DNA of 64,000 nt from Thermoplasmata archaeon (lineage in GTDB: Archaea; Thermoplasmatota; Thermoplasmata; RBG-16-68-12; JAFNFQ01): positions 10,596 through 74,595 of the forward strand of contig JBGPQV010000001.1 in assembly GCA_041489255.1 (NCBI GenBank). The letters are read 5' to 3'. This document shows positions 4,440-11,376 of this stretch, one piece after another (position 1 is the first letter of the stretch; every line of letters starts with the position of its first letter). Both the position numbers and the translations under genes were made by a program. A model generated the notes under the pieces. It was given only the letters and a program-made list of their open reading frames with translations. It did no database searches and was not told where the DNA came from.

Positions 4440-4598
4440 AGGTTGATAGTGGGCCGGAACGCCACATTTGACCGGATGCCGGGTCATCTGGCCGTAGTAT
4501 CAGCCATGAGAGTCGGGGCATAAGCATTAAAGCGGTCAGCGCGCGTTCTTAGGCGCCATACAGCGGATTTGCAGTTATTCGACGCATAGAGGTGCGGC

Positions 4599-4874
4599 TT
4601 GAACGAGTCTATTGTGTTCAGACCGGACACGGAAAAGGTCCTCGACGAGAGGCTCAGGGCGAACGACAAGGACCCCGATGTCATGTTCACGTACGCCGCG
4701 CTGAGGACGATCCAAGGCAAGTTCGAGGAGGCCCTCGACTGGCTTCGGCAGCTCGAGGAGATCGAGCCCAAGTACCCCGGGATGTGGCGGTTGAAGGCCA
4801 AGATTTATGAGCTCAAGGGAGATGCAGAGACCGCGGCATTCTACTGGAAGATGGGGTGCGATGGCTCCAGATGA
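4599..4874 (+). CDS. Small TPR-repeat protein (about 2 TPR motifs)
   Basis: 91-aa ORF, TTG start directly after an in-frame TAG. TPR-like helices (FEEALDWLRQLEEIEPKYP..., AKIYELKGDAETAAFYW). Its 3' end overlaps the GTPase start by 14 nt. Confidence 0.6.
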   Translation: MNESIVFRPDTEKVLDERLRANDKDPDVMFTYAALRTIQGKFEEALDWLRQLEEIEPKYPGMWRLKAKIYELKGDAETAAFYWKMGCDGSR

Positions 4875-5445
4875 CGAAAGACCAAGAGCAGTGAAGGTTA
4901 AACTCTGTCTAGCCGGAGAGCCCGCCGTCGGCAAGAGCAGCATGATCAAGCGCTTCGTCTTGGACATGTACGACGACAGGTATATCGCCACGCTCGGGAC
5001 GAAGGTCACGAAGAAGACTGTCACCCTGGTCGACTTCGATGGAGGCCAGGTGAAGGCTGACCTGATCGTCTGGGACGTCATGGGCACGAGGTCGATCAGG
5101 GACCTGCTGAAGGAAGCCTACTACCACGGCGCGAACGGCGTCATGGCCGTCTGCGACCTGACGAGGCGGGAGACGCTCCTCGAGCTGGACTCATGGTCGA
5201 AGGCGATCGAGACGGTCGCGGGTGTCGTCCCGACGCAGGTGGTCGCCAACAAAGTCGACCTGAAGGAGTCGAGGCAGGTCAGCGACGGCGAGCTGGAGAA
5301 GTTCTGCAGCGCCCGCGGATGGAAGTACGTCACGACGAGCGCGAAGACGGGAGAGAACGTCGAGCAGGCGTTCAAGGACCTCGGCCAGAGCGCACTCGTG
5401 AAGGTGCTCGGCGTGCAGAGACCCCCCGTCGTGGCGAGCCAGTGA
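4861..5445 (+). CDS. Ras-superfamily (Rab/Ras-like) small GTPase
   Basis: G1 GEPAVGKS, switch I YIATLGTKV (Rab-like YxxTIG), G3 WDVMG (DxxG), G4 NKVD, G5 TSAK. Start placed at the internal ATG 4861 (MAPDDERPRAVKVKL...). Confidence 0.85.
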   Translation: MAPDDERPRAVKVKLCLAGEPAVGKSSMIKRFVLDMYDDRYIATLGTKVTKKTVTLVDFDGGQVKADLIVWDVMGTRSIRDLLKEAYYHGANGVMAVCDLTRRETLLELDSWSKAIETVAGVVPTQVVANKVDLKESRQVSDGELEKFCSARGWKYVTTSAKTGENVEQAFKDLGQSALVKVLGVQRPPVVASQ

Positions 5446-5480: not shown

Positions 5481-5494
5481 AAAAGATTATAAGG
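5481..5494 (+). promoter_or_regulatory. BRE/TATA-like element upstream of the coiled-coil gene
   Basis: AAAAGATTATAAGG about 45 nt upstream of ATG 5534. Confidence 0.4.
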
Positions 5495-5533: not shown

Positions 5534-6403
5534 ATGGCGGAGTTCGAGCGGGGGTTACTGGAGAAAAGAGAGAGGGCCAACGCCGACGCTGAGAAGCACA
5601 GGCGGAAGCGCGACGACCTCAACGAGAAGACCAGGCAGTGGGTCGAGAAGAGGGACGTCCTCAACGCGCAGGCGAGGCCCCTCATCGAGGAGGCGACTGT
5701 CCACCGCGAGAAGAGAGACGCCCTCAACCTCGATGTCAGGAAGGCCAAGGAGGAGAGGGACAGGTGGAACCGCAGGGTGAACGACCTCGCCGCGATGATC
5801 GGCGACATCAAGCGGAGGAAGATGCCGCGGGGCGAGGCTTACCTTTTCGAGCTCAAGAAAGAGCTCAAGGCGCTCGAGTTCAGGCAGATGACCTCGGTCC
5901 TCACGGCGGACAAGGAGAAGGATTTGATCAAGGAGATGGGGCGGTACCAGGCGGAGATCAACAAGATAGAGCAGACCCTGGAGGAGGACGAGGAGGTCAA
6001 GAAGGCGCGGGAGGAGCTCGCGGCGACGAAGGAGACCGCCGAGGCCGCGCACAAGATGGTCGGGGAGCTCGCAGAGCAGGCGCAGGCGGAGCACGACATT
6101 ATGATCTCCCTGTACGAGCAGGGCGACGCGGTGAGGAAGGAGGCGGACGGCGCCCAGGAGGAGTTCATCAAGACGAAGATGATGGCCGACGAGGAGCACA
6201 GGAGCCACATCGACCACATCAGGCTCGTGCACGACTACGACAAGATACTCCACGGTGTCAGAGCGAGGACGGCGAGGCCGCGCGAGGAGGTCGTCGAGGT
6301 CGCGGCGAAGAAGGAGGCCGAGCTCATCTACGAGAGGTTCAGGAGAGGGGAGAAGCTCAGCACGGAGGACCTGATGACCCTCCAGAATTCAGGGTACCTG
6401 TAG
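5534..6403 (+). CDS. Archaeal coiled-coil protein (COG1340-like)
   Basis: 289 aa, almost entirely heptad-like and K/E/R-rich. Same architecture and N-terminal pattern as the paralog at 33512..34384. Confidence 0.7.
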   Translation: MAEFERGLLEKRERANADAEKHRRKRDDLNEKTRQWVEKRDVLNAQARPLIEEATVHREKRDALNLDVRKAKEERDRWNRRVNDLAAMIGDIKRRKMPRGEAYLFELKKELKALEFRQMTSVLTADKEKDLIKEMGRYQAEINKIEQTLEEDEEVKKAREELAATKETAEAAHKMVGELAEQAQAEHDIMISLYEQGDAVRKEADGAQEEFIKTKMMADEEHRSHIDHIRLVHDYDKILHGVRARTARPREEVVEVAAKKEAELIYERFRRGEKLSTEDLMTLQNSGYL

Positions 6404-6593: not shown

Positions 6594-6701
6594 CCCGCCT
6601 TAGCTCAGCCTGGTAGAGCGGGTGACTGTAGAAGGTTCCCGCCAGAATTGGCGGTGCCCGCTGGCATCATCAGGCCTCCGGTTCAAATCCGGAAGGCGGG
6701 A
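6594..6701 (+). tRNA. tRNA-Tyr(GUA) with canonical 34-nt intron (6632..6665)
   Basis: CCCGCCT/AGGCGGG acceptor (C1:G72, as in archaeal tRNA-Tyr), GCTC-AGCCTGGTA-GAGC D arm, loop CTGTAG|intron|A, T arm TCCGG-TTCAAAT-CCGGA. Lies 3 nt after tRNA-Phe. Confidence 0.9.
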
Positions 6702-6777
6702 CTCCCTTCCATTTCTCAGGTCGATCCCCGTCCCGGTAGCTTTATCGTCGGATGCGTGTATACACAAAGTAGATACG

Positions 6778-6990
6778 ATGAACGCGCGCGTGAGGCGTTG
6801 GGGCAACAGTCTGGCGATCCGTTTGAACAAGAAGCAGCTCGACTCGGCGGGCATCTCAGAGGGTGACCTGGTGAACGTGGACGTGGTGAAGCTGAAGAAG
6901 GGCGGCAACCTGGACCTGGAGAGCCTGCCCACGTTCAAGGACAGCGATCCGAAGGCCAGCGCAAGACATGACGATTACCTCTACGGGTGA
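6778..6990 (+). CDS. vapB: AbrB/MazE (SpoVT) fold antitoxin, VapB-like
   Basis: MNARVRRWGNSLAIRLNKK is the classic looped-hinge-helix motif. 70 aa, immediately upstream of a PIN gene. Confidence 0.85.
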   Translation: MNARVRRWGNSLAIRLNKKQLDSAGISEGDLVNVDVVKLKKGGNLDLESLPTFKDSDPKASARHDDYLYG

Positions 6991-6994
6991 CGCG

Positions 6995-7381
6995 ATGCGG
7001 ATTGCCGACACCAGCTTCCTCTACGCGCTATTCTCCGAGACGGACGAGCATCATACGAAGGCGGTGGCGGAGGCAGGCAAGACCCACGCTCTGTCGATTC
7101 CACCCGAGATCTTGTCGGAGACCGTCTCGCTCATCCATCGCAGGCAGGGCTTTCAGGCCGCCATGTTGGCGGGGGAGTGGGTCCGTTCGCAGGCGGGCAT
7201 CGAAATATGCGCAGCCCCCAAGCCGATCATCGAAAACACATGGAAGATATTCGCCGCCGGCAATGGGAGGCTGAGCTACCCCGATTCGGCCGTCATCGCC
7301 CACTGCAGGGCCTTGAACGCGCGTCCGCTCACCTTCGACGAGACGATCTTGGATTTCATGGGGAGAAGACCAAAGACTTAG
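6995..7381 (+). CDS. vapC: PIN-domain ribonuclease toxin VapC
   Basis: MRIADTSFLYALF (first acidic residue), PPEILSET, SYPDSAVIA and a C-terminal FDE. Start taken at ATG 6995, 4 nt after the vapB stop; ATG 6968 is also possible. Confidence 0.8.
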   Translation: MRIADTSFLYALFSETDEHHTKAVAEAGKTHALSIPPEILSETVSLIHRRQGFQAAMLAGEWVRSQAGIEICAAPKPIIENTWKIFAAGNGRLSYPDSAVIAHCRALNARPLTFDETILDFMGRRPKT

Positions 7382-8691: not shown

Positions 8692-11376
8692 ATGAGGAAA
8701 GGGAGGAGCTACTACAAGAGGAAGATGTACTTCGACAGGGAGGACCGTATCCTCCTTCATCTCCTCGATTTCGCTGGTTACGAGACGCAGCGCGAGAGGC
8801 CCGACGCCCTCACGCAGTTCGGCCTCGCCGATGCGACCATGCTGGGCCGGAGCACAATCTCCAAGTCGATTCGTCTACTGATCGACCGCGGCCTCATCGT
8901 CGCAGAACGCGCTCACGTCCCCTCCGGCAAGCTGCGCAGGACCACGTACCTCCTCACCCAGGCGGGCGCCCGCCTCGCGCGGTCGCGCAAGGAGGAAGTG
9001 GAGGGCGAGATAATCGCGGTGAGGGGGGAGAACGGCGACATCACGAGGATGCCATTGAAGCAGATCGCCCGGCAACTGCCCGCCAGCGCGTCGACGCTCA
9101 GCATCGCGGTGCACGTCAACCGCGGCGTCTTCGACATGAAGTCCTTCCAGCGCGGCCAGGAGAAGAGACAGGCGTTCGTCGACTTCACCGAGAGGGCGCC
9201 CAAGCTGAAGTACTTCTTCGGGAGGGCAAGGGAGCTGGACGAGGTGGACAAGTTCCTGGCCTCGCGCGAGTCGAAGTTCCTCGCCCTGTCCGGGATCCCG
9301 GGGATAGGCAAGACGACACTGCTCGTGAGGCGCCTGGAGGACTGGCGGAGGACCACGAACCTCTTCTGGTACCGCGTGCAGGAGTGGTCCGCGTCGGGCA
9401 ACGTGCTCCGCCGCCTCGCGCAGTTCCTCGACTGCCTCGGCAGGAGGGAGCTCTCCAACTACCTCGCGACCGGGAACGGCCTGGACATGGAGGAGGTCAG
9501 CCGCCTCCTCGAGAAGGACCTCAAGGGGCTGGACGCCCTGCTCATCTTCGACGACTGTCACAAGGCGTCCAAGGAGATCACCCAGCTGCTCTACTCGCTC
9601 AAGCTCGTGCTCGACGGCCTGCCCGGGCCCAAGGTCATCGTCGCCGGCAGGAGCGTCCCGGCCTTCTACGATAGGCGCGACGCGAAGGTGAGGAGGCTCG
9701 TCAAGGAGTTCGAGATCCATGGCCTCGACAAGGACAGTTCAGCGAGGCTCCTCGCGCTCAGGAGCGTGGACATCCAGCGGCCCGCCCTCGACAGGATCTA
9801 CGAGGAGACGAAGGGCCACCCCCTCTTCCTCGAACTCATCGACCCCGCGCAGGGGACGAGGACGAAGGACATAGTCAGGTACCTGGACGAGGACCTTGCG
9901 GCCCGCCTCTCGCGGCCGGAGCTCTCGATCCTCGAGGTCGCCTCGGTGTTCAGGTACCCCGTCGCCCCGCAGGCCCTGCTCTTCGCGCAGGAGGCCGACA
10001 TGGGCAACCTCAGGTTCCTGATTGACCAGAACCTGCTCAGGGAGACGACGCTGAACCTCTTCGAGATTCACGACCTGCTGAAGGACTTCTTCAGGGGGAG
10101 GATGACCCCGGCCAGGAGAAGGAGGTACGAGCAGAGGGCCGCGATGTATCACCTGTCCCTGGGCACGAGCGAGAACCTCCTCGAGGCGGTGCATCACATG
10201 CTCGAGGCGGGTGACGAGCGGGACGCCGCCAAGCTGTTGGCGGGGAAGGGGAAGGATATCGCGAAGCAAGGTCACACGGTCGAGCTCGACGCCTATCTGC
10301 GAAGGCTGGAGAGGGTGAAGATGGCCCCCGAGGTCAGGCTCGACCTGATGCTGCTGAGAGGCGACGCGCTGTCGAGCCTCGGGGAGTGGGAGAAGGCCCT
10401 TGAGGTCCGCGCACGGGCTTCCCGCCTCGCCGGGGAGCGGGGGGAGCTCGGGGAACAGGCCGCCGCGCTCAAGGCGATGGGGGACATCTATGTGAGGAGG
10501 AACGAGTGGGACGAGGCAATGCGCGTTCTCACCTCGAGCCTTTCGATCTACAAACGACTCGATGACGTCAAGGGACGGTCCGCCGTTCACTACGCCATCG
10601 GGATGCTGAACGAGAGCTTCGGGCACCTCGACAAGGCCCTGAAGCACTTCAGGAGGGCGGCGAGGCTGATAGGTCCCCGCGACGACCCCGAGGGGCTCGT
10701 GCAGTACCTTTCCGCCTATTCCAGGGTGCTGGTTGCGAAGGGAGAGAACGAGAAGGCTCTGAAGCTCATGAGAGAGGCGCTGGATGTGGCGCAGACTGTA
10801 GGGAACCTCCATGAGATCGCGAAGGCCACCGTGGCCGTCGGGGTCGGCCTGATGCACAACAACAGACTGGAGGACGGGCTCGAGAAGTGCCGCGAGGGCA
10901 TCAACCTCGCCCGCCGCATCGGTAACGCCCGGATTCTCGGTTACGGGTTAATGAACGCGGCATCCGCGCTTGTGCGCACAAGGAGCGCCGGATTGGCCGA
11001 GGCGAACCTCGCAGAGGCGATGAAGATATTCGAGAAGCTAGGCGAGAAAGTACCGTTGGGCATGTGCAGGATAAGCATGGGATTCGTCGAGGAGTCGCGC
11101 GGAGATTGGGAGGGGGCGAAGGCTCATCTGCGCGCGGGACTCAGGACCCTCCGGGACGATCACAGCCCTCTCGACCTGCTGAACTCGACGGTTTCTGCGG
11201 CGGTGTTGTTCGCGAAGCACGGAGAGCGGAAGGAGGCTTCCCAGCTCTTCTCGTCCTCGCGGAGCATCGCGAGACGCCTTGGAAGGGATGACATGGTCCG
11301 CTTCGCGGACGCCCAGCTCACTGCCCTGAAACAGGGCAGGGCAGTGAGGCTGCCGGGCTCTGCCGTGCCGGGATAA
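8692..11376 (+). CDS. STAND-class NTPase with N-terminal winged-HTH and C-terminal TPR array
   Basis: MarR-like wHTH (STISKSIRLLIDRGLIV), Walker A GIPGIGKTTLL, Walker B LLIFDDCH, then more than 8 TPR-like repeats. 894 aa. Confidence 0.8.
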   Translation: MRKGRSYYKRKMYFDREDRILLHLLDFAGYETQRERPDALTQFGLADATMLGRSTISKSIRLLIDRGLIVAERAHVPSGKLRRTTYLLTQAGARLARSRKEEVEGEIIAVRGENGDITRMPLKQIARQLPASASTLSIAVHVNRGVFDMKSFQRGQEKRQAFVDFTERAPKLKYFFGRARELDEVDKFLASRESKFLALSGIPGIGKTTLLVRRLEDWRRTTNLFWYRVQEWSASGNVLRRLAQFLDCLGRRELSNYLATGNGLDMEEVSRLLEKDLKGLDALLIFDDCHKASKEITQLLYSLKLVLDGLPGPKVIVAGRSVPAFYDRRDAKVRRLVKEFEIHGLDKDSSARLLALRSVDIQRPALDRIYEETKGHPLFLELIDPAQGTRTKDIVRYLDEDLAARLSRPELSILEVASVFRYPVAPQALLFAQEADMGNLRFLIDQNLLRETTLNLFEIHDLLKDFFRGRMTPARRRRYEQRAAMYHLSLGTSENLLEAVHHMLEAGDERDAAKLLAGKGKDIAKQGHTVELDAYLRRLERVKMAPEVRLDLMLLRGDALSSLGEWEKALEVRARASRLAGERGELGEQAAALKAMGDIYVRRNEWDEAMRVLTSSLSIYKRLDDVKGRSAVHYAIGMLNESFGHLDKALKHFRRAARLIGPRDDPEGLVQYLSAYSRVLVAKGENEKALKLMREALDVAQTVGNLHEIAKATVAVGVGLMHNNRLEDGLEKCREGINLARRIGNARILGYGLMNAASALVRTRSAGLAEANLAEAMKIFEKLGEKVPLGMCRISMGFVEESRGDWEGAKAHLRAGLRTLRDDHSPLDLLNSTVSAAVLFAKHGERKEASQLFSSSRSIARRLGRDDMVRFADAQLTALKQGRAVRLPGSAVPG

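What the first reader, a model, noticed from the sequence alone, without database searches (positions are those of the whole stretch)
4599..5445. Rab/Ras-like small GTPase translationally coupled to a mini-TPR protein
The 194-aa protein has all five G-motifs of the Ras superfamily (GEPAVGKS, YIATLGTKV, DVMG, NKVD, TSAK). Switch I is Rab-like (YxxTIG pattern), and Thr replaces the catalytic Gln after DxxG, so intrinsic hydrolysis may need a partner. Its ATG lies 14 nt inside the end of a 91-aa two-TPR protein, which suggests stoichiometric co-expression. No Roadblock/MglB gene is present. A COG1340-type coiled-coil protein follows. The TPR protein could be a GAP, GEF or effector for an archaeal Ras-like GTPase. 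That pairing differs from the described MglA-MglB pair.
Basis: partly seen in the sequence, partly recalled or inferred. Interest (0 to 1): 0.6.

Follow-up and report, generated by a model that had tools for sequence, protein, structure and literature searches.

The report
Mini-TPR and Rab-like GTPase operon
An uncultured soil/sediment Thermoplasmata archaeon encodes a 91-residue TPR protein whose stop codon overlaps the start of a Rab-like GTP switch lacking the usual catalytic glutamine; the pair is kept together in every related genome examined and usually follows a membrane protein with a longin-fold tail, so it gives a readable, testable GTPase–partner assignment outside the Asgard archaea.

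Summary
A TTG-started 91-aa ORF (4599-4874) folds as a helix plus two TPRs. It overlaps by 14 nt a 194-aa Ras-superfamily GTPase (4861-5445) that has all five G motifs, with Thr where Ras has Gln61.

The pairing is not chance. All 35 species genomes of the order that carry this GTPase orthogroup ("T clade") have the TPR orthologue directly upstream on the same strand. So do 6 metagenome contigs. Outside the window's genus, the stop and start overlap as [A/G]TGA in 30 of 30 loci. The pair is inverted as a unit in one genus. Both genes are under purifying selection.

New context:
- In 23 of the 31 paired loci, a single-pass membrane protein with a cytoplasmic longin-fold domain heads the operon. 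It is absent from this window.
- The sister clade (WDIWGN) sits at the same chromosomal position without a TPR.
- Other Thermoplasmatota have TPR–GTPase fusion proteins in the same N-to-C order.
- The genome holds about 18 paralogous GTPases.

The TPR has no invariant Arg, Asn or Gln, so a finger-type GAP is unlikely. A stoichiometric adaptor, effector or co-regulator is the best reading, but its biochemical role is untested.

Earlier notes of this scan describe sibling GTPase modules elsewhere in this genome.

The parts
4589..4594 (+). Shine-Dalgarno-like GAGGTG, 4 nt upstream of the TTG start of the TPR gene
   Evidence: Read directly from the sequence
4599..4874 (+). Mini-TPR gene: 91 aa, an N-terminal helix plus two TPR motifs. 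Helices lie at aa 11-21, 26-38, 42-55, 60-72 and 76-89.
   Evidence: Pfam TPR_14 29 bits. AF2 pLDDT 86.8. Foldseek finds TPR folds. Orthologues occur in 37 genomes of the order at 88-152 bits, against 80 bits or less for other TPRs. dN/dS is 0-0.16 in 12 close pairs outside the window's genus and about 0.25 for the window against its own-genus relative.
4861..4874 (+). 14-nt overlap between the end of the TPR ORF and the GTPase start (ATG 4861; TGA 4872-4874), with G-rich GGGGTG at 4853-4858. This is the translational-coupling junction.
   Evidence: The same 14-nt overlap is seen in 6 of 7 own-family relatives. A 4-nt [A/G]TGA overlap is seen in 30 of 30 loci of the other genus.
4861..5445 (+). 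Rab-like Ras-superfamily small GTPase, 194 aa, a member of the 'T clade' orthogroup
   Evidence: Pfam Ras 112 bits. Best PDB match is Thorarchaeota Rab 7ezb (103 bits), then Rab18, Rab1 and Rab8. The clade is monophyletic with SH-like support 0.89.
4915..4938 (+). G1 / P-loop GEPAVGKS
4981..5007 (+). Switch I / G2 YIATLGTKV, with the conserved Thr44. It is preceded by a family-conserved DDRY.
5074..5088 (+). G3 DVMGT, with Thr76 at the Ras Gln61 position
   Evidence: The residue is Thr in 29 and Ala in 2 of 31 paired orthologues, and Asn in the TPR-less sister clade.
5248..5259 (+). G4 NKVD
5335..5346 (+). G5 TSAK
5534..6403 (+). DUF7121 / COG1340-type coiled-coil protein. It is a conserved neighbour of the module, and whether it belongs to the system is uncertain. 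A TATA-like TTATAA at 5487-5492 suggests its own promoter.
   Evidence: Pfam DUF7121 129 bits. It is adjacent in all three lineages but divergent from the pair in genus g8. The TATA-like element is read from the sequence; the promoter is an inference.

Best explanation
The two genes form one expression unit. They encode a small GTP switch and its dedicated binding partner.

Shown:
- The mini-TPR gene and the Rab-like GTPase gene overlap stop-to-start.
- They are inherited, and in one genus inverted, as a unit.
- They are strictly co-present throughout the GTPase orthogroup.
- Both are under purifying selection.
- In most related species the unit is the distal part of a three-gene operon. That operon is headed by a single-pass membrane protein with an extracellular DUF11/CARDB-like region and a cytoplasmic longin-fold domain.

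Inferred:
- The overlap gives coupled, roughly equimolar synthesis, so the two proteins form a stoichiometric complex.
- The GTPase has no lipid-anchor cysteine and Thr or Ala in place of the catalytic Gln, so it is probably a slow, partner-dependent switch.
- Where present, the longin domain is the membrane-proximal docking platform. This fold acts as GEF or GAP scaffold in Mon1-Ccz1, TRAPP and MglB-type systems.
- The TPR is an adaptor, effector or co-regulator that binds one nucleotide state or a switch region of the GTPase. It is not an enzyme-like finger GAP.
- In the window's own genus the membrane protein is absent from the locus, and the minimal TPR-GTPase core works alone or with paralogous longin proteins encoded elsewhere.
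For: - Overlap and start sites.
- GTPase-anchored census: the T-clade GTPase is single copy in 33 of 38 genomes of genus g8 and in both genomes of the window's genus. In all 35 the TPR orthologue is immediately upstream on the same strand.
- Six of 6 metagenome contigs found with the GTPase as query also carry the TPR.
- The junction is [A/G]TGA in 30 of 30 g8-type loci.
- The pair is inverted as a unit relative to MAT, SHMT and DUF7121 in g8.
- dN/dS is 0-0.16 for the TPR and 0.01-0.23 for the GTPase in 12 close pairs outside the window's genus. The window against its own-genus relative gives about 0.25 for both genes.
- A membrane protein lies directly upstream in 23 of 31 paired loci. Its C-terminal domain models as TM helix + ββαβββαα (pLDDT 83.7). 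It matches AP sigma/mu, CPLANE, Mon1-Ccz1 and Sec22b longin domains (E 3e-5 to 2e-3; TM normalised to the Sec22b chain 0.74) and, more weakly, MglB.
- Paralogues of that domain sit directly upstream of another GTPase paralogue in this genome.
- Rosetta-stone support: at least 30 clusters of 315-363-aa Thermoplasmatota proteins fuse an N-terminal TPR array to a GTPase of the same family, in the same order as the genes here.
- No PADLOC defence model matches.
Against: - No direct evidence of binding. No complex prediction was possible with the tools.
- Two genomes (G029, G050) keep an intact TPR at the locus. The GTPase gene is missing from the sequenced locus in G029 (L055/L074) and in one GenBank MAG (L101), and neither genome yielded a T-clade GTPase with this query. 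The TPR may therefore not be exclusive to this GTPase.
- The sister N clade works at the same position without a TPR.
- Mirror-tree correlation of TPR and GTPase distances (r 0.78) is no higher than with unrelated neighbours (0.77-0.82; partial r 0.43 against controls of 0.27-0.40).
- Local synteny is generally conserved in this order, so adjacency alone is weak evidence.
- The fusion family is a separate GTPase clade and mostly keeps the catalytic Gln.
Confidence: 0.65

Rival explanations
1. The mini-TPR is the GTPase-activating protein. It supplies in trans the catalytic residue that the Thr76 GTPase lacks, as RapGAP's Asn thumb does for Rap (Thr61).
For: - Thr or Ala replaces the catalytic Gln in all 31 paired orthologues.
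- The TPR-less sister clade carries Asn at that very position in cis. It also differs at two further switch positions, 47 and 74.
- Coupled expression fits an obligate cofactor.
Against: - Across 23 diverse TPR orthologues no Arg, Asn or Gln is invariant. The invariant polar residues are T11, D25, D27, Y59 and K66.
- The T/N difference is a single evolutionary event.
- The residue after DxxG varies freely among paralogues that have no TPR.
- To my knowledge, no TPR-only GAP is known.
Confidence: 0.1
2. The TPR is a nucleotide-exchange factor or a GDI/chaperone-like stabiliser. It could act alone or as a co-factor of the membrane longin platform. The invariant acidic pair D25/D27 might then act like the Asp/Glu fingers of Vps9 or Sec7 GEFs.
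For: - The gene order is longin protein -> TPR -> GTPase in 23 of 31 paired loci.
- Invariant D25 and D27 sit at the start of TPR1.
- Stoichiometric coupling suits a chaperone or GDI-like partner of a GTPase without a lipid anchor.
Against: - There is no structural or sequence similarity to any known GEF or GDI. Foldseek returns only generic TPRs.
- The pair persists without the longin gene in about 10 loci, including the window.
Confidence: 0.2
3. The two proteins are functionally unrelated. The adjacency and codon overlap reflect genome compaction and inherited synteny only, and the TPR serves another client.
For: - The TPR is kept intact where the GTPase is gone, at the sequenced loci L055/L074 and L101 and in genomes G029 and G050.
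- N-clade GTPases lack a TPR.
- There is no specific mirror-tree signal.
- Stand-alone mini-TPR paralogues exist, e.g. G000:C6:87183-87479.
Against: - Co-occurrence is 35 of 35 plus 6 of 6 when sampling is anchored on the GTPase.
- The overlap is conserved despite about 65% protein divergence.
- The two genes are inverted together.
- An independent TPR-GTPase fusion family exists in the same phylum.
Confidence: 0.12
4. The two ORFs are joined by programmed ribosomal frameshifting into one TPR-GTPase polypeptide.
For: Fused TPR-GTPase proteins exist in related lineages.
Against: - The frame relation differs between lineages: +1 with a 14-nt overlap here, -1 with a 4-nt overlap in g8.
- An in-frame start codon sits at the junction in 30 of 30 g8 loci and in 7 of the 8 own-family loci, the window included; the one metagenome locus L131 has ACG for it.
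- No slippery motif was noted.
Confidence: 0.02

Closest known systems
Archaeal Rab-like / RasL small GTPases (Thorarchaeota Rab, PDB 7ezb; Surkont & Pereira-Leal 2016, PMC4915359; Tran et al. 2024, PMC10933270)
   Same: - This is the best sequence match (103 bits).
- Both are single-domain G proteins with Rab-like switch/interswitch features and no C-terminal prenylation cysteines.
   Different: - This one is non-Asgard (Thermoplasmata).
- It has Thr, not Gln, after DxxG.
- It belongs to a lineage-specific family of about 18 paralogues with a WDxMG signature.
- It is encoded in an operon with partners. PMC10933270 reports that Asgard MK-D1 GTPases are generally not in operons with roadblock or longin genes.
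Rap1 / RapGAP
   Same: A Thr occupies the Ras Gln61 position, which implies catalysis does not use a cis-Gln.
   Different: - No RapGAP-like protein is present.
- The TPR partner lacks an invariant Asn.
- The resemblance to Rap rests on one residue only.
MglA-MglB, with the TPR effector SgmX (PMC7519303, PMC7668184)
   Same: - It is a prokaryotic Ras-like switch with a dedicated partner.
- A TPR protein (SgmX) is a documented MglA-GTP effector.
- The longin/Roadblock fold serves as a GTPase platform.
   Different: - No Roadblock gene is adjacent.
- The GTPase matches Rab, not MglA.
- The TPR here is a 91-aa stand-alone protein that is translationally coupled, whereas SgmX is large and unlinked.
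Longin-domain GTPase platforms (Mon1-Ccz1, TRAPP, CPLANE, AP sigma/mu)
   Same: The cytoplasmic domain of the upstream membrane protein in relatives has this fold. It is genomically tied to Rab-like GTPases.
   Different: - Here it is tethered to a single-pass surface protein.
- It is not known to dimerise.
- It is absent from the window's own locus.
- Its GEF or GAP activity is untested.
Group 1 Rup neighbourhood (Wuichet & Søgaard-Andersen 2015, PMC4316618)
   Same: It is a small GTPase encoded beside a coiled-coil protein and a membrane protein of unknown function.
   Different: - The proteins are different (DUF7121, DUF11-like/longin, TPR).
- There is no diguanylate cyclase or histidine kinase output gene.
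- The lineage is archaeal, and homology between the neighbourhoods was not tested.
TPR-GTPase fusion proteins of Thermoplasmatota (P0130, P0135-P0173)
   Same: - The GTPase belongs to the same family (about 41% identity).
- The TPR is N-terminal to the G domain, matching the gene order here.
- The TPR profile matches with hhalign probability 93.5%.
   Different: - They have about four TPRs, not two.
- They are a single polypeptide.
- Most keep the catalytic Gln (WDIAGQ/WDIEGQ).
- They form a separate clade.

Membership tests
Ras superfamily small GTPase (Pfam PF00071) | G1-G5 nucleotide-binding motifs in order, within a G domain of about 170 aa | tested here: met
   GEPAVGKS, T44 in YIATLGTKV, DVMG, NKVD and TSAK
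Ras superfamily small GTPase (Pfam PF00071) | Score above the curated Pfam threshold | tested here: met
   112.2 bits against 21.6. Roc scores 76 and Arf 39.7.
Eukaryotic Rab family | Catalytic Gln after DxxG (WDTAGQE) | tested here: not met
   WDVMGT in the window; Thr or Ala in all 31 orthologues
Eukaryotic Rab family | C-terminal prenylatable cysteine(s) | tested here: not met
   There is no Cys in the C-terminal 40 residues of the window protein or in the orthologue ends printed
Eukaryotic Rab family | RabF1-F5 motifs | tested here: inconclusive
   In the alignment to Rab18, the RabF4-like YYHGA is present and RabF5 is partial (AVCDLT). The RabF1 motif IGVDF is replaced by LGTKV. No formal Rabifier-type test was run.
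Eukaryotic Rab family | Phylogenetic placement inside Rab against Ras, Rho, Ran and Arf | not testable with these tools
   No eukaryotic reference sequences could be obtained. The only evidence is the ranking of PDB matches, where the top 60 are almost all Rabs.
MglA family | Adjacent MglB / Roadblock-LC7 partner gene | tested here: not met
   The eight PF03259 matches in the genome all lie outside the window. Only one pair is next to a divergent Ras-like gene, on contig C4.
Rap-type switch | Thr at the Gln61 position plus a GAP that supplies Asn in trans | tested here: inconclusive
   The Thr is present. No RapGAP-like gene was seen, and the TPR has no invariant Asn.
TPR repeat proteins | 34-residue helix-turn-helix repeats, with a Pfam TPR model above threshold and a TPR fold | tested here: met
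   TPR_14 scores 29.0 against 23.5. The AF2 model has five helices with pLDDT 86.8. TM to consensus TPRs is 0.75-0.81.
Longin/Roadblock-platform GTPase module | A longin- or Roadblock-fold protein encoded with the GTPase | tested here: not met
   It is not met in the window, where MAT lies upstream and no longin-domain match falls inside the window. It is met in 23 of 31 paired loci of relatives.
Anti-phage defence systems (PADLOC) | Match to a defence-system model | tested here: not met
   No match for the TPR, GTPase, DUF7121 or membrane protein

The most novel reading that the evidence does not exclude
The mini-TPR may be a previously unrecognised class of small-GTPase regulator: a co-GEF, GDI-like protein or non-finger GAP. 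It would work together with a receptor-tethered longin platform. This would make a complete three-component, Rab-like membrane signalling switch that evolved, or was retained, in a non-Asgard archaeon and is written out as an operon.
Probability: 0.25. Interest if true: 0.75.

Novelty: new variant of a known kind. Interest (0 to 1): 0.55.

Why it matters
For Asgard archaea, the published structural survey notes that GTPase genes are generally not in operons with roadblock or longin genes. This makes matching a GTPase to its regulators hard (PMC10933270).

Here the genome does the matching. One Rab-like GTPase orthogroup is invariably coupled to one small TPR protein, and usually to one longin-tailed membrane protein. 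That gives three small, soluble or truncatable proteins on which binding, exchange and hydrolysis can be tested directly.

It also shows two further points:
- Large Ras-like paralogue families (8-20 per genome in this order) and longin-GTPase linkage are not confined to Asgard archaea and eukaryotes. This bears on how much of the 'eukaryotic' small-GTPase toolkit is broadly archaeal.
- The natural contrast between the TPR-paired Thr clade and the TPR-less Asn clade is a ready-made experiment on catalysis without the canonical glutamine.

Tried and rejected
- Contexts of the metagenomic orthologues were obtained through the search for related loci and the genome search instead.
- **Mirror-tree co-evolution.** The test of TPR against GTPase, with SHMT and DUF7121 as controls, gave no specific signal.
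- **Longin-like domain by sequence.** It has no Pfam or PDB sequence match. Only the fold search identified it.
- **TPR fold search.** It returned only generic TPRs, with no p67phox-, SgmX- or chaperone-specific similarity.
- **Long database 'fusions'.** P0110, P0029 and P0124-P0126 are over-extended ORF calls read out of frame through the TPR. They are not real fusions.
- **Other TPR matches.** Matches in the order at 80 bits or less are repeats in large proteins or stand-alone mini-TPRs without a GTPase within 1.5-4 kb. One locus, L042, is an exception.
- **Defence-system reading.** Rejected (PMC7159879 has nothing relevant).
- **Artificial read-through fusion.** I considered folding a fusion of the two ORFs to mimic a complex and left it out. 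The tool returns no inter-domain confidence, so the result could not have been interpreted.
- **Eukaryote-inclusive phylogeny.** It could not be built because no reference sequences could be obtained.

Full report
**What is in the window**

The window is G000:C1:10596-74595 of a 2.74-Mb, 96%-complete MAG. Close database relatives are labelled Thermoplasmata or 'Methanobacteriota' archaeon.

- The ORF at 4599-4874 (+) starts with TTG, 4 nt after GAGGTG. It encodes 91 aa that pass Pfam TPR_14 (29.0 against 23.5 bits).
- A 23-sequence alignment gives an AF2 model with pLDDT 86.8 and five helices, i.e. an N-terminal helix plus two TPRs. Its structural neighbours are generic TPRs: consensus TPR, MamA, OGT and APC.
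- The ORF at 4861-5445 (+) encodes 194 aa with Pfam Ras at 112 bits and all five G motifs.
- Its ATG lies 14 nt inside the TPR ORF. Orthologue N-termini and the 194-aa database entries support this start.
- The residue after DxxG is Thr76.
- The best solved relative is a Thorarchaeota Rab (7ezb, 103 bits), followed by Rab18, Rab1 and Rab8. Ran scores about 79 bits.
- There is no C-terminal cysteine.
- Downstream, 5534-6403 is a DUF7121 coiled-coil protein, preceded by a TATA-like TTATAA at 5487-5492 (promoter function is inferred).

**The GTPase belongs to a large lineage-specific family**

- The genome has about 18-19 Ras-family genes.
- All 41 genomes first sampled from the order have 7-20 matches to this GTPase.
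- The paralogues share RRFVLD..DD.YI.T.G.K and WDIMG signatures. The residue at the Gln61 position is free to vary: E is most common, and Q, S, D, R, A and T also occur.
- The Thr is therefore one variant among many, not a unique loss.
- Only one divergent Ras-like gene in the genome has Roadblock neighbours.

**The orthogroup and its partner**

A FastTree of 165 sequences puts the window protein in a monophyletic 'T clade'. This clade has Thr, or rarely Ala, after DxxG, with SH-like support 0.89. Its sister is an 'N clade' with WDIWGN (support 0.99). The other paralogues fall outside.

Sampling anchored on the GTPase gives the following:
- The order holds 79 species genomes.
- The T-clade gene is single copy in 33 of 38 genomes of genus g8 and in both genomes of the window's genus.
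- In all 35, the TPR orthologue lies immediately upstream on the same strand. It scores 88-152 bits against the profile, whereas every other TPR scores 80 bits or less.
- Six metagenome contigs found with the GTPase (80-100% identity) also show MAT -> TPR -> GTPase -> DUF7121.

Sampling anchored on the TPR across 185,579 species genomes found the orthologue only in this lineage.

The junction is conserved:
- The overlap is 14 nt in six of the seven relatives of the window's family, that is L073 and five of six metagenome loci. One of the six (L131) has ACG for the ATG.
- It is a 4-nt [A/G]TGA overlap in 30 of 30 g8-type loci.

Relative to MAT, SHMT and DUF7121, the pair is inverted as a unit in g8.

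dN/dS in 12 close pairs outside the window's genus is 0-0.16 for the TPR and 0.01-0.23 for the GTPase. The window against its own-genus relative gives about 0.25 for both.

**Variants that inform function**

1. In 23 of 31 paired loci, a protein of about 465 aa lies directly upstream on the same strand.
   - It has a signal sequence and an extracellular region that resembles DUF11/CARDB proteins.
   - It has one TM helix and a cytoplasmic domain of about 130 aa.
   - The cytoplasmic domain has no Pfam or PDB sequence match.
   - It models confidently (pLDDT 83.7) as \u03b2\u03b2\u03b1\u03b2\u03b2\u03b2\u03b1\u03b1 after the TM helix.
   - It matches longin domains: AP sigma/mu, CPLANE, Mon1-Ccz1, Sec22b and zeta-COP, with E 3e-5 to 2e-3. 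It matches MglB and Roadblock more weakly.
   - The window's genome lacks this gene at the locus. It has seven paralogous copies of the domain, three of them directly upstream of another GTPase paralogue on contig C10.
2. The N-clade GTPases of family f6 sit at the same position, SHMT -> GTPase -> DUF7121. The upstream gap is only about 100-140 nt and holds no TPR.
   - T and N clades differ consistently at eight positions. Three are in switch I/II: T47A, M74W and T76N.
   - This is a single evolutionary event, so it is suggestive only.
3. Two genomes (G029, G050) keep an intact TPR with all invariant residues. At the sequenced loci L055/L074 (G029) and L101 (a GenBank MAG) the GTPase gene is gone, and neither genome yielded a T-clade GTPase with this query.
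4. At least 30 clusters of Thermoplasmatota proteins, 315-363 aa long, fuse about four N-terminal TPRs to a GTPase of the same family.
   - The GTPase is about 41% identical, and the domain order matches the gene order here.
   - The TPR profiles match at hhalign probability 93.5%.
   - The fusion GTPases form their own clade and mostly keep the Gln.

**Mechanism**

Shown: the unit is co-inherited, codon-overlapped and under selection. It is genomically tied to a longin-tailed membrane protein in most species and to TPRs by an independent fusion.

Inferred: synthesis is coupled and near-equimolar, and the two proteins form a stoichiometric TPR-GTPase complex. The GTPase is a slow, partner-dependent switch without a lipid anchor. 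Where present, the longin tail is the membrane-proximal platform.

The TPR has no invariant Arg, Asn or Gln among 23 diverse orthologues. The invariant residues are T11, L19, D25, D27, F30, A33, A34, G40, L49, P57, Y59, P60, G61, W63 and K66. This argues against a finger-supplying GAP.

I rank the possible roles of the TPR as follows:
- adaptor or effector, most likely;
- GEF/GDI-like co-regulator, about 0.2;
- GAP, about 0.1;
- no functional link, about 0.12.

The mirror-tree test was uninformative. No defence-system model matches.

**Comparison with known systems**

- The GTPase is a member of the Ras superfamily.
- It is Rab-like by similarity but fails two Rab-defining features, the catalytic Gln and the prenylation Cys. 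It should not be filed as a Rab, despite the NCBI name 'Rab family GTPase' on relatives.
- It is not an MglA-MglB system.
- TPR partners of small GTPases are known. SgmX is an MglA effector (PMC7519303, PMC7668184), and p67phox-Rac is known to me from the literature. A 91-aa TPR translationally coupled to its GTPase, downstream of a receptor-tethered longin domain, is not described in the papers I could search.
- Surkont & Pereira-Leal found only single Rab-like genes in a Thermoplasmatales archaeon and in Aciduliprofundum (PMC4915359).
- Wuichet & S\u00f8gaard-Andersen's Rup survey does not mention TPRs.

**Verdict**

This is a real, conserved two-gene module and a new variant of a known kind: a small GTPase with a dedicated partner. 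Its interest is moderate to good because it provides an operon-encoded, experimentally tractable GTPase-partner assignment in a non-Asgard archaeon. The biochemical role of the TPR remains open. The decisive steps are complex prediction, binding and kinetic assays.

Noticed in passing
L027 and L021 (G000:C4:110512-115794); also L005, L008, L012, L014-L017: GTPase paralogues often stand in head-to-tail arrays of 3-4 genes, mostly WDIMGE type, spaced about 100-150 nt apart. One such array in this genome is at C4:111997-114288.
   Followed up: partly
L022 (G000:C10:47870-51361); G000:C2:228445, C2:163198, C28:13440-13937, C3:39704-40225: Five GTPase paralogues carry C-terminal extensions of about 80-100 aa, of two types. 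One type looks winged-helix-like in the alignment.
   Followed up: partly
L065-L067 (G000:C10:44384-50761): Three consecutive genes each end in, or consist of, the longin-like domain. They lie directly upstream of the GTPase paralogue at C10:49361. Seven copies of the domain exist in the genome.
   Followed up: partly
P0127, P0129, P0132: Metagenomic proteins fuse a GTPase of this family to a C-terminal DUF835 (PF05763) domain.
   Followed up: no
window 6622-7381: An AbrB/SpoVT-like plus PIN-domain gene pair (VapBC-type toxin-antitoxin) lies just after DUF7121. It is only partly present in the same-genus genome (L056) and varies among close metagenome relatives (L127-L132).
   Followed up: no
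window 8692-11376: An 894-aa protein combines an N-terminal winged-helix, a STAND/NB-ARC-type ATPase and a C-terminal TPR array (Pfam). It is 98% conserved in the sister genome.
   Followed up: no
L131:1412-2255: In this one metagenome relative the GTPase start ATG is replaced by ACG, and no in-frame ATG, GTG or TTG is near. This is either non-canonical initiation or a sequencing error.
   Followed up: no
L055 (G029:C32) and L101: The GTPase gene is missing from the sequenced locus in G029 (L055/L074) and in one GenBank MAG (L101). The TPR stop is followed within 25-60 nt by the convergent SHMT gene, and the TPR stays intact. Neither G029 nor G050 (TPR at C201, locus not inspected) yielded a T-clade GTPase. 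L055 also contains a masked run of N inside SHMT.
   Followed up: partly
G000:C6:87183-87479 (-): A stand-alone 98-aa paralogue of the mini-TPR (42% identity) has no GTPase or longin gene within 4 kb. Similar mini-TPRs of 102-103 aa are conserved in family f2.
   Followed up: partly
L042 (G036:C124:378-2815): In a family-f7 genome, a TPR-containing ORF of about 300 aa lies between two divergently oriented GTPase paralogues (WDIMGD, WDILGQ). This is another possible TPR-GTPase association.
   Followed up: no
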